NCBI GenBank assembly: GCA_037439525.1
Contig: JBBIVW010000005.1
Span: 7,007-71,006, forward strand
Source: Anaerolineae bacterium
GTDB lineage: Bacteria > Chloroflexota > Anaerolineae > Anaerolineales > UBA4823
Length of the DNA: 64,000 nt
Reading direction: 5' to 3'
Part shown: positions 2,118-39,764 of the stretch, one piece after another
Layout of the letters: every line of letters starts with the position of its first letter
Position numbering within the stretch: position 1 is the stretch's first letter
The notes under the pieces: model-generated
What the model was told of the DNA's origin: nothing
What the model saw: the letters and a program-made list of their open reading frames with translations, nothing else
Databases searched by the model: none
Program-made: the position numbers and the translations under genes

Positions 2118-5100
2118 ATGACTGATTTCCTTTTCCGCGGCTCTCTAGCCGATTTAGATGCCACCTTAAACGAACTGATCCAAATAGAAGCAGAACGCCA
2201 AGTGCGCAAGTTGATTTTGATTCCCAGCGAGAGTCAAGCCCCGCTGGCGGTGCGTGAAGCCCTTTCTTGCGCGTTTCAAAACATCTATGCCGAAGGTTAT
2301 CCGGATGAGGACACCCGATGGATGACCGAAGAGGATTTGGTAGATTACAAAAACCGACTGGCGCATTTCCGTCGCTATTCCGATCCACGTTACTATAAAG
2401 GCGTAGAGTATGCGGATATCGCCGAAGCGCTGGCGCGGCGCCGTTGTGCGGAAACCTTTGCCGCTAATGGCATTTCTGCTGACGATATCTATGTGAATGT
2501 ACAGGCGCTTTCCGGAGCGCCGGCAAACAATGCCGTGTATCACGCTCTGGTAGAGCCAGGGGGAACAATCATGGGGATGAATTTATTGCATGGCGGGCAT
2601 CTCACCCACGGCTCTTCGGTGAACCGCTCGGGCAAGTTCTATCGGGCGATCCATTATTCGGTTGATCCACAAACGGAACGCATCGACTACGACCAGGTTG
2701 AAGAATTGGCGCGCACCCACAAACCAAAGTTCATTATTGCCGGTTACTCATCTTATCCCTGGGCAGTAGATTGGGAGCGCTTCCGCCGAATTGCAGATAC
2801 GGTGGGAGCGTTTTTGTTTGCCGATATTGCCCATGTCGCGGGTTTGGTGGCGGCTGGCGTGTACCCCTCCCCCCTGGGATATGCCCATGTGATCACTTTC
2901 ACTACACACAAGTCTTTGTGCGGTCCGCGTGGGGCGTGCATCCTGACTACGGACGCTTCTTTGGCGCGCAAGATCGATCGCGCCGTCTTTCCGGGCGAGC
3001 AAGGTGGTCCCCATGTCAACACGTTTGTTGCCATGGCGCTGGCGTTCAAACTCGCGCAAACAGAACAATTCAAAACCCTGCAAAAGCAGGTGGTGCAAAA
3101 CTGCAAAGTGTTCACCCAAAAGTTGAAAGATTTGGGCTTCCGCATCCCCTATGGCGGCACGGATACACACATGATGAACCTGGATTGCAGCACCATTGTC
3201 GGTGAGGCAGGCGTAACGCTTTCCGGCGATCAGGCGGCACGTATCCTGGATATAGCCGGCATTGTGGTCAATCGCAATACCATCCCCGGTGACCTCTCGG
3301 CGGCTGACCCTTCTGGAATACGCATGGGCACCCATTGGGTAACGCAGCGCGGATTCAAAGAACAGCAAATGGAAGATTTGGCACATCTCATTGGAGATCT
3401 GCTGCACGCGATTACACCCTATGCTGTGGAGACACGTAAAGGATGGGCGCGCCGGGCAAAGGTGGATTTCACAGTGCTGGAAGAAACCAAGATGCGCGTG
3501 CGTGAAATGGCGCTCTCTGCCGGCATGGATTTCCAACCGAACCAACATGGATATCCTCACTTTTATTATCTGGACGACCCTCATCAGGGCGAGTGGGCAT
3601 CATTGGAGATCGGTGGGGAGCGGGTGCGGGCTTTCTTGAACTTTGCCCTCTCCAGCGATGTGGACGCGCTCAAACCCGGTGAAAGTCAAGTCACCAGTGC
3701 CTTTACTCCTCATGGTCACATCCTTGGGAGGTTGTATTGCTTGCAGGAAGATTGTTTTCGCCTGGTAATAGCTGCCCATCAAGCCAGCCTACTGGCTGCC
3801 TGGTTGCGGGATCTTTCCGATGGTTATGTTTCCTTTGATGAGCAGGTGGAGAGGAAACTGCCGGGACCTGTGTGGGTCGCCGAAGGTCAAATGCGCGAAA
3901 AGCCCTTGCTAACTGGCGAGGCAGTGTGTGGCGATAAGCCGTACTTCATCGGGCAAAAGCTGGAAAAAAGTGGCGCCCCATTGGCGGATTTCACCTGGCA
4001 GGCGCTTGAGGCGCCTCTACGCCGCACGCCGATTTTCGAAACCCATAAGCGGCTAGGCGCAAAGCTCATCCCCTTTGCCGGCTGGGAGATGCCGGTATGG
4101 TACACTTCTGTTTTGGAGGAACATTTGGCGGTGCGTCACGCAGCAGGCTTGTTCGATGTGGCGCATATGGGCGTCTATCAGGCGGAAGGACCACATGCTG
4201 CCATCTTTTTGGACAGCGTCGCTGGCAATGATATCAGCGGATTGGAAGTGGGCGAGTCCTGTTATACGCATTTCTTGACCCCGGACGCAGAGGTGATTGA
4301 CGACTTGTTGGTTTATCGTCGTGGGCGCGAAAAATTCCTCATCGTAGTCAATGCTGCAAACGACGATAAAGATTGGGCTTGGTTGAATGCGGTCAAAGCT
4401 GGGGAAGTGCGTGTCAGCCGCCGACTTCCATGGGGGCGCGCTTTTGGCCGGGGTGTCGTACTGCGCAATTTAAGGCACCCCGAGGCGGGAGCGGATATGC
4501 GCGTTGACCTGGCGCTTCAAGGTCCCCGTTCTCGCGAGGTGCTCCTGGCTTTGGAGATGGACGAAGCCACACGCAAGCGCATCCTGGCATTGAAGCGCAC
4601 GCAACTTTGCGAAGCGCAGATTGGAGGCTTCGATTTGGTCATCTCGCGCACCGGATATACCGGCGAAAAGATGGCTTTCGAGTTGTTCGTCCACCCGGAG
4701 ATGGCAGAGCGGTTGTTCAATCGCCTGTTAGAAGTCGGGGAACCTTATGGGTTAAAGCCTATTGGGCTGGGGGCGCGAGACTCTTTGCGCACGGAGGCCG
4801 GTTTGCCCCTCTATGGACATGAGATGGGAGAGGGTTCGGGGCGGATGGGCGTAGCATCTTTAGGGGTCGGGGAAGCCGGGTTTGCTTCCTATGTAAAGGC
4901 CTACAAGCCCTGGTTCATTGGGCGTCAGGCGTTTATCGAACGTGAGAAGAGTCGTGATGGGGAGGTGGTACGCTTTCGCTTTCCGGAGAAGGGTGTGCGC
5001 ATGGCGCATCAGGGCGATGCAGTCCTTGACCGCCGTGGGCGCGTCATCGGTTGGGTGACCAGTTGTGCCGTAGATGCAGATGGCATGCTTACAGGCCAGG

Positions 5101-5255
5101 CATTTGTCGAGAAAAAGGCGTCAACCCCAGGTAGTGCCTTATACATCTATCCAGGAAGTGGAACCCAACTGCCCAAACCCTTTGAGAAACTGGAGCTTGG
5201 AGAACGAACGGCATTGCCCTCGTACGCCGTTGTCCTCGATCGCTTTCCACGATGA
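2118..5255 (+). CDS. Fusion protein: serine hydroxymethyltransferase-like domain + linker domain + glycine cleavage T protein (aminomethyltransferase)
   Basis: Residues ~1-470 carry SHMT signatures: LIPSESQAP, YAEGYP, VNVQALSGAPAN, GGHLTHG, and the PLP-lysine motif TFTTHKSLCGPRGA. Residues ~635-1045 (nt ~4020-5255) read as a full GcvT: THKRLGAKLIPFAGWEMPVWYTSVLEEHLAVRHAAGLFDVAHMG...GARDSLRTEAGLPLYGHE. It is one uninterrupted 1045-codon frame. Confidence 0.9.
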   Translation: MTDFLFRGSLADLDATLNELIQIEAERQVRKLILIPSESQAPLAVREALSCAFQNIYAEGYPDEDTRWMTEEDLVDYKNRLAHFRRYSDPRYYKGVEYADIAEALARRRCAETFAANGISADDIYVNVQALSGAPANNAVYHALVEPGGTIMGMNLLHGGHLTHGSSVNRSGKFYRAIHYSVDPQTERIDYDQVEELARTHKPKFIIAGYSSYPWAVDWERFRRIADTVGAFLFADIAHVAGLVAAGVYPSPLGYAHVITFTTHKSLCGPRGACILTTDASLARKIDRAVFPGEQGGPHVNTFVAMALAFKLAQTEQFKTLQKQVVQNCKVFTQKLKDLGFRIPYGGTDTHMMNLDCSTIVGEAGVTLSGDQAARILDIAGIVVNRNTIPGDLSAADPSGIRMGTHWVTQRGFKEQQMEDLAHLIGDLLHAITPYAVETRKGWARRAKVDFTVLEETKMRVREMALSAGMDFQPNQHGYPHFYYLDDPHQGEWASLEIGGERVRAFLNFALSSDVDALKPGESQVTSAFTPHGHILGRLYCLQEDCFRLVIAAHQASLLAAWLRDLSDGYVSFDEQVERKLPGPVWVAEGQMREKPLLTGEAVCGDKPYFIGQKLEKSGAPLADFTWQALEAPLRRTPIFETHKRLGAKLIPFAGWEMPVWYTSVLEEHLAVRHAAGLFDVAHMGVYQAEGPHAAIFLDSVAGNDISGLEVGESCYTHFLTPDAEVIDDLLVYRRGREKFLIVVNAANDDKDWAWLNAVKAGEVRVSRRLPWGRAFGRGVVLRNLRHPEAGADMRVDLALQGPRSREVLLALEMDEATRKRILALKRTQLCEAQIGGFDLVISRTGYTGEKMAFELFVHPEMAERLFNRLLEVGEPYGLKPIGLGARDSLRTEAGLPLYGHEMGEGSGRMGVASLGVGEAGFASYVKAYKPWFIGRQAFIEREKSRDGEVVRFRFPEKGVRMAHQGDAVLDRRGRVIGWVTSCAVDADGMLTGQAFVEKKASTPGSALYIYPGSGTQLPKPFEKLELGERTALPSYAVVLDRFPR

Positions 5256-6656: not shown

Positions 6657-7160
6657 TTACCTCTGAGAGCTTTTTGCTTCTGTTTTTGACCATTCTTGAT
6701 TCATCTGGTCAATCACGTCCAGCAATTCTTGATTGGAGGGGATATCGGACATGGATTTGCCATAGTGAACAAAACGCGCCATGCCGCGTTTGTCGATCAG
6801 CACCTGGGCTGGCATACGCCCCAGTTTGAACAGGTTGACCTCCTGCCCGAATCGTTTAAGGATCGAGTGATCGGGGTTGGGCAAGCCAATGAACGGTAGG
6901 TCATTCTCTTGCCAATAACGTGAAAAGGATTGGGCATCTTCGGGTCCGACGACCAACACAAGCGTATCGCGACGCGTAAATTCCTCGTAATCTTGGCGCA
7001 ACTGCGCCATATGCCTGCGGCAGAACGGTCAACCAAAGCCGCGATTGAACACGAGCAGGACGTTGTTTTTTCCGCGATATGTAGAGAGGCGAACAGTGTT
7101 GCCGTTGAACGCGCTCAGCTCAAAATCGGGGGCGAGCGTATTGATTTCTATGCGTGACAT
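6657..7160 (-). CDS. Peroxiredoxin/AhpC-TSA (thioredoxin-fold) protein with in-frame TGA at the redox-active position; candidate selenoprotein (U-P-F-C)
   Basis: The track reports only the 3' piece (6657-7010). Reading from ATG (complement of 7158-7160) gives MSRIEINTLAPDFELSAFNGNTVRLSTYRGKNNVLLVFNRGFG-TGA-PFCRRHMAQLRQDYEEF... in one frame. The TGA (complement of 7029-7031, codon 44) sits where the family has the first Cys of W-C-P-x-C. The alternative reading is a pseudogene. Confidence 0.6.
6994..7009 (-). promoter_or_regulatory. Candidate bacterial SECIS-like hairpin downstream of the in-frame UGA
   Basis: The mRNA reads UGA-CCGUUCUGCCGCAGGCAUA-UGGCGC-AGUU-GCGCCA. That is a 6-bp GC-rich stem with a 4-nt apical loop containing GU, and the loop begins ~25 nt after the UGA, inside the window usually quoted for bSECIS elements. 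Confidence 0.4.
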
Positions 7161-7180
7161 GGTGACTACCTTTTCCTTAT

Positions 7181-8134
7181 CTAAGGAGAAAATTGTTCCA
7201 GGAATGTTTCAAGAGCGGAGAGAAAAACATCGGGGCACTCTTCTTGAGGGATGTGCCCGCATTCTGGAATGACCACCAATTGGGCGTTGGGTAGTTCGTT
7301 TGCCAGGCGCAAGCTGTCTTCAGTGGGTACAATGCGGTCATCGTCGCCGGTGATCACCAGGGTTGGTGTGGTGATCTCTTTCAGGCGTTGGTCTAAATGT
7401 AAATCACGGCTGGAAGCAGTAAACAGCCATAAAGCACGATCCCAGTTTTCGACTTTGAGCGGGGTCGTGTAGCCTTCCCAGATCTCTGGTGTGATCTTTG
7501 AGGGGTCGTGCCATGCGGAACTGGCGAAATCCCTTCCCCAATTTTGAATGTTGCGCGCCAGCAATGGTCCGAGATGATCCATTTGAGGTGTGCGCGCCAG
7601 CCAGGAAAACCAGGCAGGGCTGCCGCCAGCGTAGATAGCTGCATCCACCAGCACCAGCGCAGTAACGCGCGATGGGTAGAGGATGTCCGTTAGGGCGGCG
7701 ATGCTTCCGCCGGCGGAATTTCCCACCAAAATCGCTTGCTCTAGTTGGTAGTAATCCATCAGCGCAATGACCAGCTCGACCTGAAATTCAGCGGAATAGG
7801 GGTTACTGCCTTCCCATTCCAGGGGGCGTTCACTTAGTCCGAAAGCAAGGCGATCGAAGGCGAGCACCTGCCTTTGTTTGGCGAGCGGTTCCAGCACCTC
7901 CCGCCAAGTAAATACGCTGGAGCCGAAGCCGTGAAGCAAGATCAGCGCGGGTTGACCGCTGCCTTTGTTTTTTACGTGTACTTGATAGCCTCGCAAGCGG
8001 ATGAACTGGCTGTCTGGGTCGGCGAAAGTTTCGGGTGAAGATAAGCCTTCTAGCGGGGGAACAGGGACTAAGAACGGCCCGACCAGCACGATGAGTGCGA
8101 TGAGCACAAGCAGGATCACGAGTGTGCGCTTCAA
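7181..8134 (-). CDS. Alpha/beta-fold hydrolase with N-terminal membrane anchor
   Basis: N-terminus MKRTLVILLVLIALIVLVGPFLV (TM segment), oxyanion-region LLHGFGSS, nucleophile elbow GNSAGG, and C-terminal IPECGHIPQEE (catalytic His). TTG start with GGAGG 7 nt upstream. It ends 20 nt upstream of the Prx-like gene, so the two are probably an operon. Confidence 0.85.
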   Translation of the reverse strand: MKRTLVILLVLIALIVLVGPFLVPVPPLEGLSSPETFADPDSQFIRLRGYQVHVKNKGSGQPALILLHGFGSSVFTWREVLEPLAKQRQVLAFDRLAFGLSERPLEWEGSNPYSAEFQVELVIALMDYYQLEQAILVGNSAGGSIAALTDILYPSRVTALVLVDAAIYAGGSPAWFSWLARTPQMDHLGPLLARNIQNWGRDFASSAWHDPSKITPEIWEGYTTPLKVENWDRALWLFTASSRDLHLDQRLKEITTPTLVITGDDDRIVPTEDSLRLANELPNAQLVVIPECGHIPQEECPDVFLSALETFLEQFSP

Positions 8135-8199: not shown

Positions 8200-8228
8200 A
8201 TCATATCATTATGTACATAATTTGTCAA
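8200..8228 (-). promoter_or_regulatory. Promoter of the hydrolase/Prx-like operon (TTGACA-N17-TATGAT) with embedded 14-bp palindrome
   Basis: The minus strand reads TTGACA (8228-8223), then AATTATGTACATAATGA (17 nt), then TATGAT (8205-8200). The spacer contains the perfect palindrome ATTATGTACATAAT (8208-8221). Confidence 0.45.
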
Positions 8229-8365: not shown

Positions 8366-8905
8366 TCACTCAACAGGTAGAATCCAATAATATTCTCCGT
8401 CACCTTCGGCCATATATCCTTCGATCTCATCATCCTTATTGCTGCGGATCGTGCGGAACAACCAAATGATCATTTTCCCTTCCCAGCACCATGGACCTTT
8501 TTTGACTTCGAGCTGTTCTCCCAATTCAGGCATATATAAAGTGGGTGAGTACTGCACGTCTTTGTCGATGTGCATGCCGGTGTTGCCGGAGAGAGAGACG
8601 ACGTAGGCAATGTCCCCAATATGCAGACGAGAGGCGACGCATCCAGGGATAGGATAGTAGATATCTCCTGGAATGGTGGGTGGGGAGGTGCGTGTGGGGG
8701 TGGGGATGAATTGAGTAGGTGGGGGTAAAGGTTCCGTGGGCAAGGGTGTGGCGACGATCAGGGTAACGATTTGGGTGACAAAGATCGTTTTTTGCACTTC
8801 TTCAGTATCTGTTCCCTCCGAAGAGGCAGCAGTACAGGCATTGGTAAATAGCAGGATACTTGCCAGCAGAATGGCTATCCAACGGTTTTTGCATTTCAGC
8901 ACCAT
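8366..8905 (-). CDS. Secreted/anchored protein: signal anchor + Pro/Thr linker + SH3b-like C-terminal domain (paralog B)
   Basis: I prefer the ATG at 8905 (AAGGAG 8 nt upstream), giving MVLKCKNRWIAILLASILLFTNAC..., over the track start at 9037. The C-terminal ~100 aa read IYYPIPGCVASRLHIGDIAYV...GPWCWEGKMIIWLF...EGDGEYYWILP. Length is 179 aa, the same as the upstream paralog. Confidence 0.6.
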   Translation of the reverse strand: MVLKCKNRWIAILLASILLFTNACTAASSEGTDTEEVQKTIFVTQIVTLIVATPLPTEPLPPPTQFIPTPTRTSPPTIPGDIYYPIPGCVASRLHIGDIAYVVSLSGNTGMHIDKDVQYSPTLYMPELGEQLEVKKGPWCWEGKMIIWLFRTIRSNKDDEIEGYMAEGDGEYYWILPVE

Positions 8906-8937
8906 AAGGCGTTCTCCTTTTGAAATTTTAGGCAGCG

Positions 8938-9477
8938 CTATTGTCGTGGCAATGGCACCAGCCAGTATTCTTCGCCATTGCCTTCTGGAGTGAAGCCGCG
9001 CGTTCCATCGGCCATTTGTACGAACCATACGATCCAACCATGGCTACACCAGGGTCCATCCAGGATGGTCAGGATGCTGCCAGGTTGGGCATAGGTCAGG
9101 ATGTTGTCTTCATGTAAATCCAGTCCCCAACGAATGGCGTTTGGACCACCAATCCATGAGACCATGGCTTGATCGCCAATGTGTAAGCGCGAGGCGACGC
9201 AATTGGGTAGTGGGTAGTATATAGGCGCTGACATCGGATCCCAGGTTGGCGTTGGCGAAGGGAAGGGTGTTGGGCTGGGTAGGGGAGTGTTGGTTGGTCG
9301 TGGAGTGGGGGTAATGATTTGGGTTACCACCTGGGTGATCACTTCTGTCTCCACTATGGGAGTAGCGGTGTCTTGTAGGACGATCTTGGGCGGCTCGATG
9401 CGACAGGCCAGCACGGCAAGCCACAGCATCGCCCCGGCGACAATGAGATGGGTTTTTCTTCGAATGGTCATTTTCAT
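8938..9477 (-). CDS. Secreted/anchored protein: signal anchor + Pro/Thr linker + SH3b-like C-terminal domain (paralog A)
   Basis: The true start is probably the ATG at 9477 (AGGAG 10 nt upstream), giving MKMTIRRKTHLIVAGAMLWLAVLAC.... A PT-rich linker (TPTPRPTNTPLPSPTPFPSPTPT) is followed by IYYPLPNCVASRLHIGDQAMV...GPWCSHGWIVWFV...EGNGEEYWLVP. The 380-aa track ORF (to 10080) overlaps the transpeptidase gene out of frame, so I trimmed it. Confidence 0.6.
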   Translation of the reverse strand: MKMTIRRKTHLIVAGAMLWLAVLACRIEPPKIVLQDTATPIVETEVITQVVTQIITPTPRPTNTPLPSPTPFPSPTPTWDPMSAPIYYPLPNCVASRLHIGDQAMVSWIGGPNAIRWGLDLHEDNILTYAQPGSILTILDGPWCSHGWIVWFVQMADGTRGFTPEGNGEEYWLVPLPRQ

Positions 9478-9517
9478 ACCAATTGAACTCCTACTTGCGT
9501 ACTCAGATGCGCGGGGA

Positions 9518-10522
9518 CTAATATACGATGACCCGCGTTCCCTCATCGGAGGCGACGAAGTCCTCATCGACCGGCACATAGGGATCGGTCCAGCGGTAAA
9601 TCCACTTCGCCGCTTCCGGAGAAAGGTTGATGCATCCATGGCTTTGAGGGGTGCCATAGTTATTATGCCAATATGTCCCATGCAATGATACCCCGGTCCA
9701 GGCAATATAACAAACCCAGGGCACGCCCGGCAAGTCGAACTCATTTCCCTCCAGGTCCGATGCCATATGGCGGGTAGGCTGTTTACGTTCGACGCGGTAT
9801 TCCCCCTGTGGGGTATCTCCGGGGAAGTAGCCGGTGGCGGTGCGCGCAGTAAAGACCGGTTGGGAGCCCTCGAAGGCGATGATGCGTTGGCGATTAAGAT
9901 CGACTTCGATCCGTTTGCCCGGCACGCCTGGAGAAATGGGAGATAGCTCTTCAGCGGTAATCGGTCGGAAATGTTCGCCTTTGGCGAAATAGTGTACCCC
10001 TGCGCGGTCGTCGTACACCTGATACCACACGTCACCATTATCGAGCTTGAAGGCATAATGCACCCAATGGGTGCTGGCATAATACAGCCGATGCTTACGT
10101 TGCCAGATGCCCTCTTTGGGCAGGTACACTTGCGTAAAGGGAACAGTAACCTCCATCAATAACCCACCATTTGGGATGGAAAGCAACGGTTCGTTGATTT
10201 GGTTGCGTACGGGTTGCACGTATGCCGAATGAAGCCAGCCATCCTTGGTGCGTAGCCAAATAGGGTTATGCACCGGTTCCGGGTCGCCGAGCGCTTGCTC
10301 CAGAATCTGGATCACCGTATCGGTGACATAGAAGCCCAGCTCCTGACCCTGGGTGGAGGGTCTGTCATAGTAGCGTAGTGAATAAATGGTACGTCCGAGG
10401 GTGAAGGGAGGAGCCCCTTTATTGTAGGGGTCGTTTCCAGGAGGAAAATCTCGAAATGCAAGGCTGGCCACACTGACCGCGGATAATTTGAGAAAATCTC
10501 TCCTGCTGAGCCTGGTAGTCAT
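9518..10522 (-). CDS. L,D-transpeptidase (YkuD domain) with twin-arginine signal peptide
   Basis: Tat motif MTTRLSRRDFLKLSAVSVASLAF. The C-terminal YkuD catalytic signature is GVSLHGTYWHNNYGTPQSHGCINLSPEAAKWIY (His...Gly-Cys). Confidence 0.9.
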   Translation of the reverse strand: MTTRLSRRDFLKLSAVSVASLAFRDFPPGNDPYNKGAPPFTLGRTIYSLRYYDRPSTQGQELGFYVTDTVIQILEQALGDPEPVHNPIWLRTKDGWLHSAYVQPVRNQINEPLLSIPNGGLLMEVTVPFTQVYLPKEGIWQRKHRLYYASTHWVHYAFKLDNGDVWYQVYDDRAGVHYFAKGEHFRPITAEELSPISPGVPGKRIEVDLNRQRIIAFEGSQPVFTARTATGYFPGDTPQGEYRVERKQPTRHMASDLEGNEFDLPGVPWVCYIAWTGVSLHGTYWHNNYGTPQSHGCINLSPEAAKWIYRWTDPYVPVDEDFVASDEGTRVIVY

Positions 10523-22196: not shown

Positions 22197-23183
22197 TTAT
22201 GAGCTCCTTTTTCCCCTGGAGAACAACAGGCGTTCGATGTTGGCAACGCCTTCCTCAAATGTATCTCCCAAATATTCCCCTGCAATGCGCATCCGCCATT
22301 CCGGATATTCCACGAAAAACCTGCCACCATAGCCGACGACCGGCGTGGCCTCAGTCGCCAGGTTTGGGAAGTAAGCGGGTAAATCGAGCAAAGCCTGGGC
22401 GGTTTCTTCTGACATGGCAACGAGGACGACCAAATCGGGCTCTAAATCACGCACCAGACTGGCTAAATCTGCCATAGGGACTGTTTGCCCGAGATAAGCA
22501 ATAGGCCAACGCCGCCGGCGCAACAAGGCCCCTAGCACCAGCAGACTGCCTTCATGCAGCTCTTGTGGAGCGCATGCCAACATGATAGGAGGGGTCAATC
22601 TGGGTGGTGGCCCACTCACCATCCACATCAATAACCTTTGGCGTAGGAAATTGGTTGCCAGGTGTTCTGTGGCGATATCGATTTCCCCGTTTTCCCAGGC
22701 GCTACCGATCCTATCGAGCACAGGGGCGATCACCTGCAGGATGGTCTCTTCTGGGGAAGCGACAGCAAGGGCATTAGCCAGCACTTGCGCGGCTTCCTCT
22801 TCGAGGTGTGCTACGAGAGCTTCGTAAAGCTGGTCCGCAAACATTGCCAGGTTAGGCCGGGGCTCAGCAGTTGAGACCCGATGCAGGAGAGGCGCAGGTT
22901 CTGGTTGGCTGACATGCCCAAGTTGCGTTTGATGGTAGAGCGCTTGAATGGCTTGGGAGGTTTGCATCCCCTCCTGGATGCGCGCCTTGACCCATTGCAA
23001 CTGCAAGATGTCTTGTTCAGAGTAAAGACGATGACCCCCCTCGGTGCGCTTGGATTGAGGAAAGCCATAGCGGCGCTCCCAAGCACGTAATGTTGCCATG
23101 GAGAGGCCCGTCAGGCGGGAAACCGCTCCAATGTTAAACAAAGGCTTGTCTCCACCAACCAGCACATGCGGTAATGTCGCCAT
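22197..23183 (-). CDS. MerR-family regulator with cobalamin-binding domain (CarH/LitR-type light-responsive repressor)
   Basis: N-terminal MerR HTH FNIGAVSRLTGLSMATLRAWERRYGFPQSKRTEGGHRLYSEQD. The central helical bundle has W-x9-E-H (WENGEIDIATEH). The Rossmann-like B12 domain has ACAPQELHEGSLLVLG, a near match to D/E-x-H-x-x-G. AAGGAG sits 5 nt before the ATG. Confidence 0.8.
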   Translation of the reverse strand: MATLPHVLVGGDKPLFNIGAVSRLTGLSMATLRAWERRYGFPQSKRTEGGHRLYSEQDILQLQWVKARIQEGMQTSQAIQALYHQTQLGHVSQPEPAPLLHRVSTAEPRPNLAMFADQLYEALVAHLEEEAAQVLANALAVASPEETILQVIAPVLDRIGSAWENGEIDIATEHLATNFLRQRLLMWMVSGPPPRLTPPIMLACAPQELHEGSLLVLGALLRRRRWPIAYLGQTVPMADLASLVRDLEPDLVVLVAMSEETAQALLDLPAYFPNLATEATPVVGYGGRFFVEYPEWRMRIAGEYLGDTFEEGVANIERLLFSRGKRSS

Positions 23184-33952: not shown

Positions 33953-35134
33953 TTATTCGCTTGAATTTTGTTCTTGTGAGAGCAGCCTCTCATAAAGCTG
34001 GTCGATTTGCGCAATCATAGTTCGCAAATCGAAATCCTTTCGCACTGAAGCGCGCGCCCTTTCAGCCATTTGCTGGCGCAACGAAGCATTCTCGATGAGT
34101 GTCAGGCAGCTTTGGCTGAGGGCGTTTATATCGTCAGGCGGGCAAAGGTAGCCATTGACACCGTGTTCAACGATATCTGAAATCCCATCGATGCGATGGG
34201 CGACGATGGGTAGCCCCATAGCCAGCGCCTGGGGCAAGACGCGCGGCAAGCCTTCCCATAATGATGTGAGCAGGAAGATGTCCATGGCCGCGAGCATGCG
34301 CGGGACATCGCGCCGCAAGCCTGTGAGCCGGGTTCGATCTTGCAAGCCCAAGTCACGCAGTCGCGCCTCCACCTGGGGGCGTAATGGGCCATCCCCTACC
34401 AGCAGAAAAAATGTCTCTTGGTTTTTGCGGGCGATTTCCGCAGCGGTTTGGATCCAGGTGAGTGGGTTCTTCTGTGCCGAAAAACGGCCGACATTGCCGA
34501 CTACGAGCGTGTGTATTGGGATATCTAATTCCTTTCTGATTGCATCTCTGTGATAACGCCTGACGTCAAATATCTCTAGAGGGATGGCGCTGCGAATGAG
34601 CTGGTATTGGCGCTTTTCTCCTATATGCGCAGCCAGCCCTTTGAACGTATCCTGCTGCGCCACCACGATTAGAGCATGGGTAAAACGTGCCATCCACCGT
34701 TCAAGCAAAATGTAGATGTGTCGCATTACGGGGCTCATGTGTTCATGGAAGCTCCAGCCATGCACGGTATGCACGATGATGGGCACATGGGCAAGCCTGG
34801 CTGCCAGGCGCCCTAAGATGCCGGCTTTGGAACTGTGCGTGTGGACGATATGCACCTGATTCTGACGGAAGAGACGGTAGAGTTGAATTAAAGCGCGCAA
34901 ATCCTTTAGTGGGTGAATCTGACGCACCAGGTCATTCAGCACAAGCAGGTCTATGCCATGCGTGCGTGTTTCTTCAAGAAGGCTGCCCTCGCTGCCCGTT
35001 TGTGCTCCGCTGATCAGGCGGGTTTGATAGCGCTGTTTGTCGAGAAGCGCGCAGGTGTACAGCGTGTTCTCTTGCGCCCCTCCAACGATCATGCGCGTGA
35101 TGACATGATACACGCGGGCAGGCGTTTCAGGCAT
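33953..35134 (-). CDS. Glycosyltransferase family 4 (GT-B)
   Basis: C-terminal sugar-nucleotide motif SLWEGLPRVLPQALAMGLPIVAHRIDGISDIVEHGVNGYL (E-x7-E type). I prefer the ATG at 35134 (GGAG upstream; 8-nt overlap with the upstream stop) over the GTG at 35149. Confidence 0.85.
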   Translation of the reverse strand: MPETPARVYHVITRMIVGGAQENTLYTCALLDKQRYQTRLISGAQTGSEGSLLEETRTHGIDLLVLNDLVRQIHPLKDLRALIQLYRLFRQNQVHIVHTHSSKAGILGRLAARLAHVPIIVHTVHGWSFHEHMSPVMRHIYILLERWMARFTHALIVVAQQDTFKGLAAHIGEKRQYQLIRSAIPLEIFDVRRYHRDAIRKELDIPIHTLVVGNVGRFSAQKNPLTWIQTAAEIARKNQETFFLLVGDGPLRPQVEARLRDLGLQDRTRLTGLRRDVPRMLAAMDIFLLTSLWEGLPRVLPQALAMGLPIVAHRIDGISDIVEHGVNGYLCPPDDINALSQSCLTLIENASLRQQMAERARASVRKDFDLRTMIAQIDQLYERLLSQEQNSSE

Positions 35135-36272
35135 GCTGCTCCATTTCACATGTGGCGCGATAGATTTCTAGAGTCTGGCGAGCGCATTGCTCCCAGGTAA
35201 ATTGCTTGACGCGTTCCTTGCCGCGGGCAATCAGCCATTGGCGCATTGCTCCACCAGGCACGACTTTCAGCAAGGCATGCGCTGCCTGCTCGGGCTCATA
35301 CGGAGAGACGAGGATACCCGCCTCCCCGACGACTTCCGGGATCGCCGTGCAATGGGAAGCGACCACAGGAGTTCCCGCCGCCATGGCTTCGATTAGAGGT
35401 AAGCCAAAGCCTTCATAGGTGGAAAGCAAGACGAAGGCATCTGCCAGGTGATATAAGGAGATCAATGCCTCACCTTCTTGATGGTCAATGAAATGTACGT
35501 GTTGCTCCAGCCCCAATCGCCTGACGTAATCTTCAGGCTCATGATAGTCTGCATATCGTTTCCCAGCGATGACTAGGGAATAATTTTTTTGGCTGAGTTC
35601 CCGGAAGATGCGATAGGCTTCGATGAGCGTGGGGATGTTTTTATGCGGCCGACGTTCTCCCACAAAGAGTAGGAATGGGGGGGAGAGGCGATACTCTTCC
35701 AGCAATTGGGTCCCGCTGTTTCGGCTGAACTGCTGAAACTGATGCCGCTCAACTCCGTGATGGATCACGGTGATTTTTTCTAGGGGGATTTTTGCCCTAG
35801 AATGCACCTCACTTTTGATGAAGTGGGAAACGGCAATCACCCTATCGGCTTTACGCGCGGCCAGTTGGGTCATGCTTTGTACTACTCTCCCTTTGAGCCT
35901 GCTCCAGCCACTTAGCCATTGGGGATGGGTGAAATACAGGAGGTTGTGGATGGTAACGACGAGTTTGCCGGGGTAGTGTAAGGGAATGTTAAAATGAGGC
36001 ACATGTAACACGTCGGCACCTTGTTGCATCAGGCGGGCAGGCATGCCCCAAAGCTGATGCATGCTCTTGTGATTCATCGTGAGCCATTGGACATGGATAT
36101 TATGGAATTTGATTGTCCTGAGGGGGTGATTCGGGGGCAACCCGGCATGAGCCCAGACTTCCACGGTTTCATCGCGGATCGTGGTTTCCAACCCTTGGAT
36201 CAATCCCAACAGATAGCGTCCAATGCCGGTCATTTCGGGAAGGATCAATCGGGCATCAATTACAACGCGCAT
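35127..36272 (-). CDS. Glycosyltransferase family 4 (GT-B)
   Basis: YEGFGLPLIEAMAAGTPVVASHCTAIPEVVGEAGILV. I prefer the start at the ATG at 36272 (MRVVIDARLI...), because the track's longer start would intrude into the divergent promoter region. Confidence 0.85.
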   Translation of the reverse strand: MRVVIDARLILPEMTGIGRYLLGLIQGLETTIRDETVEVWAHAGLPPNHPLRTIKFHNIHVQWLTMNHKSMHQLWGMPARLMQQGADVLHVPHFNIPLHYPGKLVVTIHNLLYFTHPQWLSGWSRLKGRVVQSMTQLAARKADRVIAVSHFIKSEVHSRAKIPLEKITVIHHGVERHQFQQFSRNSGTQLLEEYRLSPPFLLFVGERRPHKNIPTLIEAYRIFRELSQKNYSLVIAGKRYADYHEPEDYVRRLGLEQHVHFIDHQEGEALISLYHLADAFVLLSTYEGFGLPLIEAMAAGTPVVASHCTAIPEVVGEAGILVSPYEPEQAAHALLKVVPGGAMRQWLIARGKERVKQFTWEQCARQTLEIYRATCEMEQHA

Positions 36273-36363
36273 TTTGCATCCTTTTGCGCCATGTTTGGGA
36301 GCCGCTGCCTGGCGAAAGTATAACATCTACACGCGCGTTCAATGCTATACTTACCCCGCTTTT

Positions 36364-37962
36364 ATGGAACAAAATGGAACACCACCTGTACCACAAGATG
36401 CGGCGATGACCTCACCGTCGGGCATGCCTCTTGCCAGCCGTAGTGTCACCTCGATCACCTGGAACATCGTAGCCCAATTTTTCCACCTGCCGGTCAGTTT
36501 TGTTCAAACCGTTTTGCTGGCGCGCCTGTTGCCGGTTGAGTTCTTTGGCATCACCGAGGGGATGACCGCGGTGGGGATGATCAGTTACACGCTGTTTGAA
36601 TTTGGCATGACCGGGGCGTTTTTTCACCGCTCCCCCGAAACCGAGGATGAGAGCAAGGCTGCAGCGGCGTTTTTTACATTGCGACTGATCTTCACCGCCA
36701 TTTGGTCGCTTTTACTCATCGGCGGTAGCCTGCTCTTCTTGACCGAAACACGCCAGATGGTTTTGTTGATTTATGCCACGACCGGGTTCCTTTCAAAAGT
36801 GCTGGATATGCCGCGCCTGATCCTTATGCGCCGCGTGCAACATAAACGCCTGGCGATCATCGATGTGCTCAATGCGGTATTTGTCTTCATTGCTTCTGCC
36901 GCAATTGCCTTATCCACGCGCTCAATTTGGGCGTTGCTCATCTCACCGGTTGTCACGCTGATTTGGAATGTGATGGCCATGTATTTTTGGCGTCCGATCT
37001 GGATGCCACGCCTCTATTGGGATGCCCCAGTGATGCGCTATTTTCTTGACTTTGGAAGCCGATTTGTGTGGGCAAATGCGCTGGGCATCGCTTTGGATCA
37101 TATCGATGACCTATGGACGAACATCTTCTTGGGCGATCGGGCTTTGGGATATTACTCGCGCGCTTATAAGATCGCCATCTATCCGCGCCTGGTGCTGTCG
37201 GCGCCGATCAATTTGGTCGCCATGGGCACATATGCCGAGTTGAAATATGCGCGTGAACGGCTCTCTCAAGCCTTCATGAAAATCAATATCATCATGATTC
37301 GCACCGCCTTCTTGCTTGGTGGGTGGTTGGCGCTGATCGCGCCCTATTTCACCCGCCTGCTCCTGGGAGAACAATGGTTACCTATGGTACCGGCTTATCG
37401 TTTGATGTTGGTGTTCACCCTGTTGGATCCGATCAAGGTGACCATTGGCTCCGTTTTAATTGCCGTAGGAAGACCAGAGAAACTGAGCCTGGCGCGCATA
37501 GTCCAATTTTTCGTGTTGCTCGTTTGCCTGTTCGCATTAGGATTACCGTTCGGTATTCAAGGTGTGGCTTTGGGTGTGGATGTAATGTTGTTCATAGGTA
37601 TGGCGCTTTTGTTACATTTCGTGCGCCAGCATATCGATTTTTCGTTGACCAAGTTGTTCTTCTCCCCTCTGCTTGCCCTGTTGGTTGGGGTCTTATTCAG
37701 CCTGGCATTGAACAGGGTGGATATGCTCTTTGCTTCGGATTTATTGGCTTTGGTGACCCTAAGCGTTAGTTATGTGACCACGTTCCTGGCAGTTCTCATC
37801 ATCGCCGAGGGGCGAATGCTCATGCAAACCGGACGCGAAATTGTGTTGATCCTAGATTTGAAGAATAGACTGATAAAGCTACTTGAAAGGGACGAGATAA
37901 ACAGCTTCTGGAAGGAACCATTGGTGGATTTATTGAATAAGCGAGGTACCCCGCGTGGATAA
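36364..37962 (+). CDS. Wzx-type polysaccharide/oligosaccharide flippase (MOP superfamily)
   Basis: About 12-14 TM helices with a typical polysaccharide-biosynthesis-protein layout (ITWNIVAQFF...LLARLLPVEFFG...YSRAYKIAIYP). I prefer the start at the ATG at 36364 (MEQNGTPP); the track start at 36223 overlaps the divergent GT4 gene. Confidence 0.8.
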   Translation: MEQNGTPPVPQDAAMTSPSGMPLASRSVTSITWNIVAQFFHLPVSFVQTVLLARLLPVEFFGITEGMTAVGMISYTLFEFGMTGAFFHRSPETEDESKAAAAFFTLRLIFTAIWSLLLIGGSLLFLTETRQMVLLIYATTGFLSKVLDMPRLILMRRVQHKRLAIIDVLNAVFVFIASAAIALSTRSIWALLISPVVTLIWNVMAMYFWRPIWMPRLYWDAPVMRYFLDFGSRFVWANALGIALDHIDDLWTNIFLGDRALGYYSRAYKIAIYPRLVLSAPINLVAMGTYAELKYARERLSQAFMKINIIMIRTAFLLGGWLALIAPYFTRLLLGEQWLPMVPAYRLMLVFTLLDPIKVTIGSVLIAVGRPEKLSLARIVQFFVLLVCLFALGLPFGIQGVALGVDVMLFIGMALLLHFVRQHIDFSLTKLFFSPLLALLVGVLFSLALNRVDMLFASDLLALVTLSVSYVTTFLAVLIIAEGRMLMQTGREIVLILDLKNRLIKLLERDEINSFWKEPLVDLLNKRGTPRG

Positions 37963-38007
37963 CAGCCATGGATATGGATGTAAAAACCGATAACGGAAGG
38001 ATGAACG

Positions 38008-38805
38008 ATGATTTCGGTGGTCATCAACACCCTTAACGAAGAGCGTAACATTGAGGCGTGCATCCGCAGTGTACAGAACCTGGCAGATGAGCTCTTGGTG
38101 TGCGATATGTATAGCGATGACCGAACGGTGGAAATCGCTAAAAGCTTCGGCGCGCGGGTGATCTATCACGCACGGACAGGCTTTGTCGAACCTGCCCGCC
38201 ATTTTGCCATCTCGCAAGCCAAAAATGAATGGATTTTGGTTTTAGACGCTGATGAGCGGATGACCGCGCCATTGGCAGAAAAGCTCAAAGAGATCGTCGA
38301 AACACAGAAGGTGCAGGTCGTCTCATTTAGGCGGTTGAACTGGTATTTTGGCGGCTGGATGCGTCATGGGCAGTTTTTTCGTAGTGAGTTTGCCCGCTTT
38401 TTTCGTAAGTCAACGTACCTGGAAAGCTACCGAAAGAGCGAAGAGGATGTGCACCAAAACTTCAAGGCAGTCGCCATGCATCCCAGTATGGTGCGGTTAC
38501 CGGCGGATTATTACATACTGCACATCGCAGCTCACACGATTGAAGCGTATGTCCACAAAACATTAGGGATGTATGCCCGTTTGGAAGCCGAACAGATGTT
38601 TCGAGATGGTGCTCGATTTCGGTTATGGCGTCTCTTTTGGGAACCGGTAAAATCCTTTGGAAAAAATTTTATCTATTTACAAGCTTTTAGGGATGGGATT
38701 CGCGGTTTTGTGTTATCCGTGCTGTATGCGGTCTATCGCTTTAATGTCTGGGCAAACCTTTGGTTGATGGAAGAAAAACCATCGCCGGATGCCCCTCTTA
38801 GTTAG
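38008..38805 (+). CDS. Glycosyltransferase family 2
   Basis: ISVVINTLNEERNIEACIRSV...CDMYSDDRT...LVLDADE (GT-A fold with DxD). Confidence 0.85.
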   Translation: MISVVINTLNEERNIEACIRSVQNLADELLVCDMYSDDRTVEIAKSFGARVIYHARTGFVEPARHFAISQAKNEWILVLDADERMTAPLAEKLKEIVETQKVQVVSFRRLNWYFGGWMRHGQFFRSEFARFFRKSTYLESYRKSEEDVHQNFKAVAMHPSMVRLPADYYILHIAAHTIEAYVHKTLGMYARLEAEQMFRDGARFRLWRLFWEPVKSFGKNFIYLQAFRDGIRGFVLSVLYAVYRFNVWANLWLMEEKPSPDAPLS

Positions 38806-38816
38806 CTGGGGTTCCT

Positions 38817-39764
38817 ATGGCACAGGGTGCACCTTTGGTTTCGATCGTCACGCCGACACTCAACCAGGAGATGTTCCTGGAAGAGACCATCCGTTCGGTA
38901 CTTCAGCAGAGCTATCCGAACATTGAGTACATCATCATTGACGGAGGTTCGTCAGATCGCAGTCTCAAAATCATCCAGCGCTATGCCCCACGCCTGGCTT
39001 ATTGGGAATCGACTAAAGACCGCGGTCAGGCACATGCGATTAACAAGGGACTGATGCGCGCCAAGGGAGAAGTTCTGGGGTGGCTGAACGCCGATGACCT
39101 CTTGCTACCCCAGGCGGTGCAACGTTGTGTGCAAACCTTCCTGGAACATAAAGAAGTGGATGTCGTCTATGGTCATGTGCAGCGCATCGATGCGCGCGGC
39201 CAATTGGTGCCAACTCCTGAACTGCCTAAGGATCGGGTGGTTTTCAATAAACAGTTTGTTTTGGGAGAGTGCTTGGTCAACCAGCCTGGTGCTCTCTGGA
39301 GGCGTACCATCATGGAACAGGCGGGCATACTCGATGAATCTTTGCACTATGTCATGGATTATGAGTTCTGGATTCGCCTGGCGTTGCATGGGGCGAAATT
39401 TTTCCGTGTGCCAGATACATTAGCCTATTTTCGGATCAGCGCGCGTTCTAAGACCGCCACTCAATCTGCCCAGATGGCATTGGAGCACTTGATGGTGCTG
39501 GAGCGCACGCGCAGTGTACCTCACCTTGCCTCGATAACCGGCCTTTCAGAGGCAGAGCTACAGGAACAGGAAAGAAAGACGCGAAGCCTGGTCTGCCTGT
39601 ATGCCTTCTATGGGTTTTTAAAGTCAAAGCGTTACTTGCAGGCCTGGCATTGGTTTCAGCAGGCATTGCGCGCAGATTGGCGTGTGTTGTTCCAGAGGCG
39701 CTGGTTCGATTTAGCCCGCGCCGGGGCGGTGCGACGCCTCTCATCCATGCGCGGGTTGTTATAA
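38817..39764 (+). CDS. Glycosyltransferase family 2
   Basis: VSIVTPTLNQEMFLEETIRSVLQQSYPNIEYIIIDGGSSDRS...GWLNADD. Confidence 0.85.
   Translation: MAQGAPLVSIVTPTLNQEMFLEETIRSVLQQSYPNIEYIIIDGGSSDRSLKIIQRYAPRLAYWESTKDRGQAHAINKGLMRAKGEVLGWLNADDLLLPQAVQRCVQTFLEHKEVDVVYGHVQRIDARGQLVPTPELPKDRVVFNKQFVLGECLVNQPGALWRRTIMEQAGILDESLHYVMDYEFWIRLALHGAKFFRVPDTLAYFRISARSKTATQSAQMALEHLMVLERTRSVPHLASITGLSEAELQEQERKTRSLVCLYAFYGFLKSKRYLQAWHWFQQALRADWRVLFQRRWFDLARAGAVRRLSSMRGLL

What the first reader, a model, noticed from the sequence alone, without database searches (positions are those of the whole stretch)
6657..7160. Unannotated candidate selenoprotein: peroxiredoxin-like gene with UGA at the CxxC cysteine position plus a SECIS-like hairpin
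The six-frame track shows only a 117-aa ORF starting at HMAQLRQ. That ORF would lack the first beta-strand and the redox motif of the thioredoxin fold. Reading upstream in the same frame from a well-placed ATG (7160) gives 43 more codons with the typical AhpC/TSA N-terminus (LAPDFELSAFNGNTVRLSTYRGKNNVLLVFNRGFG), then TGA, then PFCRRHM. In Cys-containing relatives this block is R-G-x-W-C-P-x-C, so the TGA aligns with the peroxidatic/redox Cys and gives U-P-F-C. A GC-rich hairpin (UGGCGC-AGUU-GCGCCA, complement of 6994-7009) has its apical loop ~25 nt after the UGA and a G in the loop, as expected for a bacterial SECIS. Prx-like/thioredoxin-fold selenoproteins are a known class, but gene callers miss them systematically. 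The gene sits 20 nt downstream of an alpha/beta hydrolase, probably in one operon.
Basis: partly seen in the sequence, partly recalled or inferred. Interest (0 to 1): 0.75.

Follow-up and report, generated by a model that had tools for sequence, protein, structure and literature searches.

The report
Unannotated peroxiredoxin-like selenoprotein gene
This is a real but mis-annotated gene for a small redox enzyme. A "stop" codon in its active site is read as the rare amino acid selenocysteine, directed by a short conserved RNA hairpin. It is a new member of a known selenoprotein class that gene callers routinely truncate or mistranslate.

Summary
On the minus strand, 7160..6657 reads ATG, 43 codons, TGA (7031..7029), then P-F-C-R-R-H-M-A-Q-L-R-Q, and so on to TAA. 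With U replaced by C the product is an AhpC/TSA domain protein.

Comparative evidence is strong. Of 44 related loci from different GTDB species, mostly Anaerolineae, 37 carry TGA at the same column and 7 carry Cys. Both sides of the TGA evolve as coding sequence in one frame. The invariant Pro45, Cys47 and His50 lie between the TGA and the next Met.

The hairpin GGCGC-AGUU-GCGCC is invariant at synonymous sites in the TGA forms. Relatives keep it through compensatory pair changes, and it meets the published bacterial SECIS consensus. TGA is an ordinary stop elsewhere in the window (16 of 43 genes).

Two corrections apply:
- The Sec aligns with the first Cys of a CxxC motif, which is the Thr position of the peroxiredoxin TxxC. 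It does not align with the peroxidatic Cys, which is Cys47.
- Many database "homologues with Trp" at this column are TGA translated with genetic code 4.

The Sec machinery could not be checked, because none lies in the window. The verdict is a new member of the known "Prx-like thiol:disulfide oxidoreductase (UxxC)" selenoprotein class. Confidence is about 0.9 and interest is moderate to low.

The parts
6657..7160 (-). Full coding sequence of the Prx-like selenoprotein: 167 codons including Sec44, plus the TAA stop
   Evidence: Searches give the translation. One search gives the Pfam AhpC-TSA and Redoxin hits. Searches show orthologues aligning from Met1 to the C-terminus. One search shows the codon-position substitution pattern of coding sequence on both sides of the TGA.
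7029..7031 (-). In-frame UGA (codon 44), read as selenocysteine; first residue of the U-P-F-C redox motif
   Evidence: TGA at this column in 37 of 44 related loci and TGC/TGT in 7. TGA in 7 further metagenome loci.
7020..7022 (-). Cys47 codon (TGC). It is the inferred resolving partner in U-x-x-C and lies in the column of the peroxiredoxin peroxidatic Cys
   Evidence: Cys47 is invariant in alignments A2 and A3. PDB alignments place it opposite the Prx C_P. It lies between the TGA and Met51, so it is translated only if the UGA is read through.
6994..7009 (-). SECIS hairpin UGGCGC-AGUU-GCGCCA: stem 7009..7004 paired with 6999..6994, loop 7003..7000. It is encoded by the codons for M-A-Q-L-R-Q
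   Evidence: -10.8 kcal/mol, z = -3.6. GCG, CAG and TTG are each 37/37 and Arg is only CGC or CGT; 97.7% of cells paired, with compensatory GC to AU/UG and CG to UA changes, and the AGUU loop in 43/43; the motif occurs once in the window.
6657..7010 (-). The 117-aa ORF that standard gene calling reports. It is the truncated C-terminal part and starts at Met51
   Evidence: One search lists the ORF. P0001 is a 117-aa NCBI-sourced protein, 100% identical; orthologue MBN1148494.1 is annotated as a 122-aa 'redoxin domain-containing protein' starting at MAQLRQ.
7161..7180 (-). 20-nt spacer between the hydrolase stop codon and the ATG, containing a purine-rich ribosome-binding stretch (AAGGAAAAGG)
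   Evidence: sequence read directly.
7181..8134 (-). Alpha/beta hydrolase gene (317 aa) directly upstream, probably co-transcribed
   Evidence: Abhydrolase_1 at 2.6e-31; an alpha/beta hydrolase lies directly upstream on the same strand in 14 of 45 loci.
8200..8228 (-). Sigma-70-like promoter match (TTGACA-17-TATGAT, 11 of 12, with TG) upstream of the hydrolase. It is a candidate promoter for the two-gene unit
   Evidence: This is a consensus match only. No promoter-like site was found between the hydrolase and the selenoprotein gene.

Best explanation
The region encodes a 167-residue cytoplasmic, peroxiredoxin-fold redox protein whose codon 44 is a UGA decoded as selenocysteine.

Translation starts at ATG 7160. 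When the ribosome reaches UGA 7031..7029, the hairpin 19 nt downstream (GGCGC-AGUU-GCGCC, 7009..6994) is inferred to recruit SelB carrying Sec-tRNA(Sec), so that Sec is inserted instead of terminating.

The product carries a U44-P-F-C47 motif at the N-terminus of the first active-site helix of a BCP-like thioredoxin fold. Sec44 is inferred to be the attacking nucleophile. Cys47 is inferred to resolve the oxidised selenium as a selenenylsulfide, which a thioredoxin-type reductant then recycles. The enzyme would therefore act as a thiol/selenol:disulfide oxidoreductase, possibly also as a peroxidase.

Shown here:
- the reading frame and the domain;
- conservation of TGA paired with Cys at that column;
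- coding constraint on both sides of the TGA;
- an RNA-level constraint on the hairpin.

Inferred: SelB dependence, selenium incorporation, the catalytic cycle and the substrate.
For: 1; the frame is intact and the AhpC-TSA domain spans the TGA (residues 7-127).
2; of 44 loci from different GTDB species, 37 have TGA at the same column followed by P-[FY]-C, and 7 have Cys.
3; pairwise differences at codon positions 1/2/3 are 0.36/0.25/0.63 upstream of the TGA and 0.27/0.21/0.57 downstream. Both parts are therefore under protein-coding selection in one frame.
4. Pro45 and Cys47 are invariant and His50 nearly so. They lie between the TGA and the next Met, so that stretch must be translated.
5; in 37 TGA forms the codons GCG-CAG-TTG are each 37/37 and Arg is only CGC or CGT. 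Other conserved residues use 2-6 synonymous codons.
6; relatives keep the stem through GC to AU, GC to UG and CG to UA changes that even alter the peptide (A..R to M..H, T..R, S..R). The AGUU loop is invariant in 43/43. Slid-register controls pair only 17-58% of cells, against 97.7% for the real register.
7; the bSECIS consensus is met. That consensus requires a loop of 3-9 nt with G in its first two positions, a stem of 4-16 bp, 16-37 nt from UGA to loop, and MFE of -7.5 kcal/mol or lower. Here the values are AGUU, 6 bp, 25 nt and -10.8 kcal/mol.
8. TGA terminates 16 of 43 proxy genes in the window, so there is no code reassignment.
9; an AF2 model of the Cys orthologue (pLDDT 92) starts the helix at residue 45. 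The best folds are BCP/PrxQ (TM 0.87) and ResA.
10. PF00578 UxxC 'Prx-like' proteins are an established predicted selenoprotein family.
11. SelB and Sec-containing formate dehydrogenases are reported in Anaerolineales.
Against: - No tRNA-Sec, selA, selB or selD was found in the 64-kb window. The rest of the genome could not be searched.
- The fold energy of the wider region is not above chance.
- The stem is short (4-6 bp).
- The same hairpin persists in two Cys forms (L038 and L048). It could therefore have another role, or it could be a recent fossil.
- There is no experimental evidence of selenium incorporation.
- The source is probably a metagenome-assembled genome.
- The enzymatic activity and substrate are not established. 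The Prx catalytic Pro, Thr and Arg are not conserved.
Confidence: 0.9

Rival explanations
1. Pseudogene or sequencing error. A Cys (TGC/TGT) or Trp (TGG) codon mutated or was miscalled as TGA, and the gene is dead or wrongly assembled in this genome.
For: Single-nucleotide variants of the codon do occur in rare relatives: TTA in L054 and CGA in L055, the latter with a disrupted N-terminus. L040 carries a frameshift. The window probably comes from a MAG.
Against: TGA is at the same column in 37 species-level loci plus 7 metagenome loci. The coding constraint is intact on both sides. The window copy has no frameshift and a full-length conserved N-terminus.
Confidence: 0.03
2. UGA is read as Trp (or another standard amino acid), either through an alternative genetic code or through near-cognate read-through, giving W-P-F-C rather than U-P-F-C.
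For: 73 of the top 120 database homologues are recorded with Trp at this column.
Against: All 7 loci checked on DNA (encoding 6 of those proteins) carry TGA. They were translated with code 4 by metagenome gene callers, and 'translates_to_query' is 'no' under table 11. TGA is a normal stop in 16 of 43 window genes. True non-TGA homologues have Cys, not TGG-Trp. A dedicated conserved hairpin is not needed for a reassigned codon.
Confidence: 0.03
3. Termination really occurs at the TGA. The functional product is the 117-aa C-terminal ORF starting at Met51, with or without a separate 43-aa peptide. The hairpin would serve translational coupling or re-initiation rather than Sec insertion.
For: A Met codon sits within the 5' arm of the hairpin in most orthologues, and gene callers pick it. 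The hairpin survives in two Cys forms.
Against: The 117-aa product would lack the first two beta-strands and the whole redox motif. Pro45 and Cys47 are invariant and His50 nearly so, and they lie in the supposedly untranslated gap. Met51 is Leu (CTG or TTG) in several orthologues (L012, L029, L031, L032, L037, L042). Cys forms are continuous single ORFs.
Confidence: 0.03

Closest known systems
Prx-like thiol:disulfide oxidoreductase selenoproteins. These are 'Prx-like 1' (PF00578, UxxC) of the Kryukov/Zhang/Gladyshev catalogues, with reference member WP_010940744.1 from Geobacter sulfurreducens
   Same: It shares the Pfam AhpC/TSA domain, Sec as the first residue of a UxxC motif, Cys-containing homologues, and a bSECIS hairpin directly downstream in the coding region.
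   Different: Direct homology to the reference members was not tested. This clade is centred on Anaerolineae/Chloroflexota rather than Deltaproteobacteria or marine plankton. It has its own signature (FNRGFxUP[FY]C..HMAQLRQD, GRMPAQ) and a nearly sequence-invariant SECIS.
SelL and the NCBIfam subfamily NF040769 'SelL-related redox protein'
   Same: NF040769 is the best NCBIfam hit for the window protein (80.8 bits) and matches all 38 aligned family members, the top hit where the per-member table is shown. Both are Prx-like folds with a redox motif at the same helix N-terminus. From my own knowledge, SelL is a Prx-like selenoprotein with UxxU.
   Different: The score is below the curated cut-off of 120 bits, and only model positions 3-99 of 173 match. 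It is a related family, not a member. The motif is UxxC, not UxxU.
BCP/PrxQ peroxiredoxins, for example Sulfolobus Bcp1 (3drn) and E. coli BCP (NF006960)
   Same: These are the closest solved structures by sequence (3drn, E = 4.9e-14) and by fold (TM 0.87). They are of similar size and, like this protein, lack a signal peptide.
   Different: The Prx signature PxxxTxxC reads RxxxUxxC here. The Thr position is Sec, and the Prx catalytic Arg column holds Gln119 (HMMER alignment) or Pro117 (ungapped reading). NF006960 scores 38 bits against a cut-off of 140.
ResA/TlpA-type thiol-disulfide oxidoreductases (CxxC)
   Same: The CxxC motif aligns residue for residue (3hdc WCPYC against UPFC). An R-x-P element precedes the beta-strand in both. 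ResA structures are among the top fold matches.
   Different: ResA and TlpA are membrane-anchored and extracytoplasmic. This protein starts directly with the first beta-strand and has no hydrophobic N-terminus. NF002854 scores 39 bits against a cut-off of 170.
PrxU, the Sec-containing peroxiredoxin (NF040737; TxxU)
   Same: It is a bacterial selenoprotein of the AhpC/TSA superfamily.
   Different: In PrxU the Sec replaces the peroxidatic Cys (TxxU). Here Sec is three residues earlier (UxxC). The score is 24.6 bits against a cut-off of 270.

Membership tests
Bacterial selenoprotein gene (Sec-UGA plus bSECIS) | In-frame TGA aligned with Cys in homologues (Sec/Cys pair) | tested here: met
   7 of 44 loci have TGC/TGT at the column. 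L048 and L049 have TGC; 15 Cys forms among the top 120 database proteins.
Bacterial selenoprotein gene (Sec-UGA plus bSECIS) | TGA conserved at the same position in orthologues from other organisms, with conserved flanks | tested here: met
   37 GTDB-species loci and 7 metagenome loci; coding-type substitution pattern on both sides.
Bacterial selenoprotein gene (Sec-UGA plus bSECIS) | Stem-loop fitting the bSECIS consensus. That consensus requires a loop of 3-9 nt with G in positions 1-2, an upper stem of 4-16 bp, 16-37 nt from UGA to loop, and MFE of -7.5 kcal/mol or lower | tested here: met
   The consensus is taken from PMC13188914. Here the loop is AGUU, the stem is 6 bp, the spacing is 25 nt and the MFE is -10.8 kcal/mol. 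Covariation and synonymous-site constraint are shown.
Bacterial selenoprotein gene (Sec-UGA plus bSECIS) | Genome encodes selA, selB, selD and tRNA-Sec | not testable with these tools
   The window contains only tRNA-Val and tRNA-His. None of about 25 window proteins scanned is SelA, SelB or SelD. The literature reports SelB and Sec-containing formate dehydrogenases in Anaerolineales (PMC4959059).
Bacterial selenoprotein gene (Sec-UGA plus bSECIS) | Selenium actually incorporated at the UGA | not testable with these tools
   This needs 75Se labelling or mass spectrometry.
Prx-like thiol:disulfide oxidoreductase selenoprotein family (PF00578, UxxC) | AhpC/TSA (PF00578) domain above the gathering score | tested here: met
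   71.2 bits against a cut-off of 26, covering residues 7-127 and spanning the UGA.
Prx-like thiol:disulfide oxidoreductase selenoprotein family (PF00578, UxxC) | Sec as the first residue of UxxC at the active-site helix N-terminus | tested here: met
   U44-P-F-C47; the helix begins at residue 45 in the model of the Cys orthologue; the motif aligns with CxxC of 3hdc and with TxxC of the Prxs.
Prx-like thiol:disulfide oxidoreductase selenoprotein family (PF00578, UxxC) | Close homology to the reference members (for example WP_010940744.1) | not tested
Peroxiredoxin proper (BCP/PrxQ) | PxxxTxxC active-site signature with a peroxidatic Cys | tested here: not met
   the signature reads R40-G-F-G-U44-P-F-C47. 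Pro is replaced by Arg and Thr by Sec. Only the Cys column is kept.
Peroxiredoxin proper (BCP/PrxQ) | Conserved catalytic Arg before the beta-strand (..R.TF.ID) | tested here: inconclusive
   HMMER aligns the Arg of 3drn with Gln119, while an ungapped reading aligns it with Pro117. An invariant Arg115 lies 2-4 residues upstream, and its spatial role was not examined.
Peroxiredoxin proper (BCP/PrxQ) | Prx/BCP fold | tested here: met
   the model has pLDDT 92.1, and 3drn matches at TM 0.87 and rmsd 2.2.
NCBIfam NF040769 SelL-related redox protein | Score at or above the curated cut-off (120 bits) | tested here: not met
   80.8 bits; all 38 relatives hit the model, with a best E-value of 2.1e-23; the one member with a listed score (P0019) has 72.8 bits.
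ResA/TlpA thiol-disulfide oxidoreductases | CxxC motif together with extracytoplasmic location (signal peptide or membrane anchor) | tested here: not met
   The CxxC column is met, but there is no N-terminal hydrophobic segment. NF002854 scores 39.3 bits against a cut-off of 170.

The most novel reading that the evidence does not exclude
This could be a distinct, so far uncatalogued selenoprotein subfamily, sister to the SelL-related redox proteins. In this reading:
- Sec is the dominant state (roughly 80% of close relatives) across Anaerolineae and some low-GC and actinobacterial lineages.
- Sec insertion is directed by an unusually small, almost sequence-invariant SECIS (a GC-clamped AGUU tetraloop) that dictates the peptide M-A-Q-L-R.
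- The protein is functionally coupled to alpha/beta hydrolases, for example in detoxifying ester or lipid hydroperoxides.
Probability: 0.2. Interest if true: 0.45.

Novelty: new member of a known kind. Interest (0 to 1): 0.33.

Why it matters
The practical value lies in annotation. The gene in this window, and apparently most of its relatives, is recorded in public databases in one of two wrong forms. One is a 106-122-aa fragment lacking the active site. The other is a full-length protein with a false Trp at the catalytic position, because the TGA was translated with genetic code 4.

Recognising it adds a selenoprotein to a lineage (Anaerolineae) whose selenium use is little described, and it implies that this organism decodes Sec. 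The family also gives a clean natural example of a coding-region SECIS. Its stem constrains synonymous sites and even co-varies through amino-acid changes, which makes it useful for training selenoprotein and SECIS predictors.

It does not change current understanding of Sec biology.

Tried and rejected
- **Fold energy of the wider region.** The 61-nt and 47-nt stretches after the UGA do not differ from shuffles. Only the 16-24-nt hairpin stands out.
- **Rfam.** The search at E up to 10 found nothing relevant, only a chance snoRNA match. I know of no bacterial SECIS model in Rfam.
- **Sec machinery in the window.** ARAGORN found no tRNA-Sec. NCBIfam scans of about 25 proteins found no SelA, SelB or SelD. 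tRNA scans of the 44 related loci found none either.
- **Exact look-up of the window's 117-aa product.** It returned no contig, so the source genome could not be identified.
- **Other UGA-interrupted genes in the window.** The only other candidate is an ordinary small zinc-ribbon gene that starts after the TGA.
- **A possible 3-bp lower helix (UGC...GCA).** It shows no covariation and is uninformative.
- **Search of representatives at 50% identity.** It added little. There are 44 representatives at E of 1e-30 or better, and 30 of the best 150 begin at M-A-Q-L-R.
- **Rejected readings.** These are pseudogene, UGA read as Trp, and a split gene or re-initiation at Met51 (see the rival explanations).

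Full report
**Observation.** On the minus strand an ATG at 7160 opens a frame of 43 sense codons: MSRIEINTLAPDFELSAFNGNTVRLSTYRGKNNVLLVFNRGFG. A TGA follows at 7031..7029, then PFCRRHMAQLRQ... down to a TAA ending at 6657. Mechanical ORF listing gives only the 117-aa piece 7010..6657, which starts at Met51, plus a separate 43-aa piece. With the TGA read as Cys, the 167-aa product matches Pfam AhpC-TSA (71.2 bits, cut-off 26, residues 7-127) and Redoxin (56.2 bits). The domain therefore spans the TGA. The hairpin UGGCGC-AGUU-GCGCCA lies at 7009..6994, and its loop starts 25 nt after the UGA. The alpha/beta hydrolase gene 8134..7181 ends 20 nt before the ATG.

**Is the TGA more than an accident?** A scan of one genome per GTDB species returned 44 related loci. 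Most are Anaerolineae/Chloroflexota MAGs and they share 42-71% amino-acid identity with the window protein. Translating them in frame shows TGA at exactly this column in 37 loci, always followed by P-[FY]-C, and TGC/TGT in the other 7.

The sequences upstream of the TGA evolve like coding DNA in the same frame. Mean pairwise differences at codon positions 1/2/3 are 0.36/0.25/0.63 upstream, against 0.27/0.21/0.57 downstream. Pro45 and Cys47 are invariant and His50 is nearly so. All three lie between the TGA and the next Met, so that stretch can only be under selection if the ribosome reads through the UGA.

TGA is not reassigned in this organism, because it terminates 16 of 43 proxy genes in the window. 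In a neighbour-joining tree, six of the seven Cys forms form one neighbouring clade and the seventh (L033) branches nearby; the TGA forms make up the rest.

**The hairpin.** Energy alone is weak evidence. The 61-nt region after the UGA folds no better than shuffles (z = 0.08). The 24-nt hairpin segment does stand out (-10.8 kcal/mol, z = -3.6).

The comparative signal is decisive. In 37 TGA forms the codons for Ala52, Gln53 and Leu54 are GCG, CAG and TTG in 37/37, and Arg55 is only CGC or CGT. Every other conserved residue of the same gene uses 2-6 synonymous codons, with the commonest at 30-86% apart from Cys47 (TGC in 36 of 37). Differences at codon position 3 fall to 0.08 in these five codons.

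DNA fetched for more distant relatives shows the stem kept through paired changes:
- ACG...CGU gives A-U.
- UCG...CGG gives U-G.
- GUG...CGC gives U-G.
- In a 33%-GC lineage, AUG...CAU changes two pairs at once and turns the peptide A-Q-L-R into M-Q-L-H.

On a 43-sequence alignment, the pair at columns 25:36 is GC 30, GU 10, AU 2 and UG 1. The pair at 26:35 is CG 41, UA 1 and UG 1. Neither is ever broken. The AGUU loop is invariant. Overall 97.7% of cells pair, against 17-58% in slid registers.

The element meets the published bacterial SECIS consensus (PMC13188914). [quoted passage not shown] From my own knowledge, the N-G-U-N tetraloop resembles the GGUC loop of E. coli fdhF that SelB recognises.

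In the older Cys lineages these codons vary freely. Two Cys forms (L038 and L048/L049) still carry the hairpin. I read this as recent Sec-to-Cys conversion with a fossil SECIS, but it is also the main reason to keep a small doubt about a second role for the hairpin.

**A database trap.** In the large protein database, 73 of the 120 best cluster representatives do show RGFxWPFC. Another 24 are 106-135-aa proteins, nearly all starting at or just before M-A-Q-L-R, and only 15 have Cys.

I fetched the DNA for six of the 'Trp' proteins, at seven loci. All have TGA, and the look-up tool reports that they do not translate to the database protein under table 11. They are metagenome gene calls made with genetic code 4.

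So about 80% of the closest relatives are TGA forms, recorded either truncated or with a false Trp. NCBI annotates one orthologue (MBN1148494.1) as a 122-aa 'redoxin domain-containing protein' that begins at MAQLRQ. The window's own product is present in the database only as the 117-aa fragment. Rare Leu (TTA) and Arg (CGA) variants are single-nucleotide neighbours of TGA with the hairpin intact, and one of them has a damaged N-terminus.

**What kind of protein is it?** The closest solved structures by sequence are BCP-type peroxiredoxins (3drn, E = 4.9e-14) and a Geobacter TlpA-like thioredoxin-family protein (3hdc). An AlphaFold model of the 60%-identical Cys orthologue P0019 is confident (pLDDT 92.1, pTM 0.88). 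It places residue 44 immediately before the helix that starts at residue 45. Its best fold matches are BCP/PrxQ proteins (TM 0.87), followed by other peroxiredoxins and ResA.

The Sec column matches the first Cys of CxxC in 3hdc and the Thr of the peroxiredoxin TxxC. The peroxidatic-Cys column is Cys47. The Prx Pro is Arg40 here. The Prx catalytic Arg aligns with Gln119 in the HMMER alignment, or with Pro117 in an ungapped reading.

The best NCBIfam model is NF040769 'SelL-related redox protein', but at 80.8 bits against a cut-off of 120. All 38 aligned relatives hit the same model; the one with a listed score (P0019, 72.8 bits) is also below the cut-off.

There is no signal peptide or membrane anchor. 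I therefore file it as a cytoplasmic Prx-fold protein with a thioredoxin-like U-x-x-C centre. This is the class the selenoprotein literature calls 'Prx-like thiol:disulfide oxidoreductase' or 'Prx-like 1' (PF00578, UxxC) (PMC2398784; PMC13188914; PMC1794560).

The catalytic cycle is inferred from that family resemblance and was not tested. In it, the selenolate attacks, a Sec44-Cys47 selenenylsulfide forms, and a thioredoxin-type reductant recycles it.

**Context.** A strong sigma-70-like match (TTGACA-17-TATGAT with TG) lies at 8228..8200 upstream of the hydrolase. A terminator-like hairpin precedes it, and no promoter-like site separates the hydrolase from the selenoprotein gene. This is consistent with a two-gene transcript.

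Across the 45 loci an alpha/beta hydrolase lies directly upstream on the same strand in 14 (9 Sec forms and 5 Cys forms). These hydrolases belong to two families (Abhydrolase_1 and Abhydrolase_5), and the two are sometimes in tandem. The association is recurrent but far from universal, so a functional link is only a lead.

**What could not be shown.** No tRNA-Sec, SelA, SelB or SelD lies in the window or in the fetched loci, and the rest of the genome was out of reach. The literature reports Sec-specific elongation factors and Sec-containing formate dehydrogenases in Anaerolineales single-cell genomes, SelB in Anaerolinea thermophila (PMC4959059), and selenoproteins in Chloroflexi (PMC1794560). 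The trait therefore exists in the lineage. No other UGA-interrupted gene was found in the window, and the SECIS motif occurs there only once.

**Verdict.** It is an unannotated (publicly truncated) selenoprotein gene with a well-supported coding-region SECIS. It belongs to a known kind, the Prx-like UxxC selenoproteins, so the novelty is that of a new member or clade. Its interest is mainly for annotation and as a clean example of SECIS and codon co-constraint. My confidence that it is a genuine Sec-decoding gene is about 0.9, and I score interest at about 0.33.

Noticed in passing
window 2118..5255 (+): A single 1045-aa ORF fuses a serine hydroxymethyltransferase (residues about 87-465) to a GcvT-type aminomethyltransferase (residues about 630-1010). 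I do not know how common this fusion is.
   Followed up: no
Database proteins P0002-P0095; loci L045, L046, L047, L050-L053: Metagenome gene callers (ENA, Logan, JGI) translated the Sec-TGA of this family as Trp, using genetic code 4. 73 of the top 120 cluster representatives read RGFxWPFC, and all 7 loci checked carry TGA. This is a systematic artefact that can mislead Sec/Cys column checks.
   Followed up: yes
L046:5736-6197 and L047:1444-1905: A 33%-GC lineage carries the TGA form between rpsO (S15) and pnp (PNPase). Its SECIS stem is GAUGC/GCAUC, which is two compensatory pair changes, and the peptide reads M-Q-L-H. The whole contig was called with code 4, and its ribF-like gene has a TGA 8 codons before the called end.
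   Followed up: partly
L048:3001-3471, L049:2975-3445, L038:1363-1824: These Cys (TGC) forms still carry the intact GGCGC-AGUU-GCG(C/G) hairpin. It may be a fossil SECIS left after a recent Sec-to-Cys change, or a hint that the hairpin has a further role.
   Followed up: partly
L040:3001-3452; L054:501-974; L055:501-908: These look like damaged or variant copies. L040 has a frameshift after about codon 62. L054 has TTA (Leu) and L055 has CGA (Arg) in place of TGA, and L055 has a non-homologous N-terminus. They could be pseudogenes or long-read consensus errors.
   Followed up: partly
L001:88-843(-), L005:2360-2980, L006:2165-2788(-), L007:1671-2276(-): A second redoxin paralogue lies within 1-3 kb of the selenoprotein gene in four loci. 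The L001 and L005 copies match AhpC-TSA_2 (PF13911) plus AhpC-TSA.
   Followed up: partly
window 8366..9037 (-) and the 3' half of 8938..10080 (-): Two adjacent paralogous genes have Pro/Thr-rich linkers and a shared C-terminal domain (IYYP.P.CVASRLHIGD ... GPWC ... W). The one scanned against NCBIfam (8366..9037) has no match. The 380-aa ORF is probably over-extended at its 5' end, where it overlaps the neighbouring L,D-transpeptidase-like gene 9518..10522.
   Followed up: no
Proteins P0130, P0161, P0203, P0214: Very long proteins (1188-1717 aa) contain 4-6 separate stretches matching this Prx-like profile. They are either tandem-domain proteins or gene-calling artefacts.
   Followed up: no
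window 22197..23183 (-); window 33953..47023: The window also holds a CarH-like B12-dependent light-responsive regulator. It also holds a polysaccharide biosynthesis cluster with GT4 and GT2 glycosyltransferases, a Wzx-type flippase and a WecA/sugar-transferase fusion.
   Followed up: no
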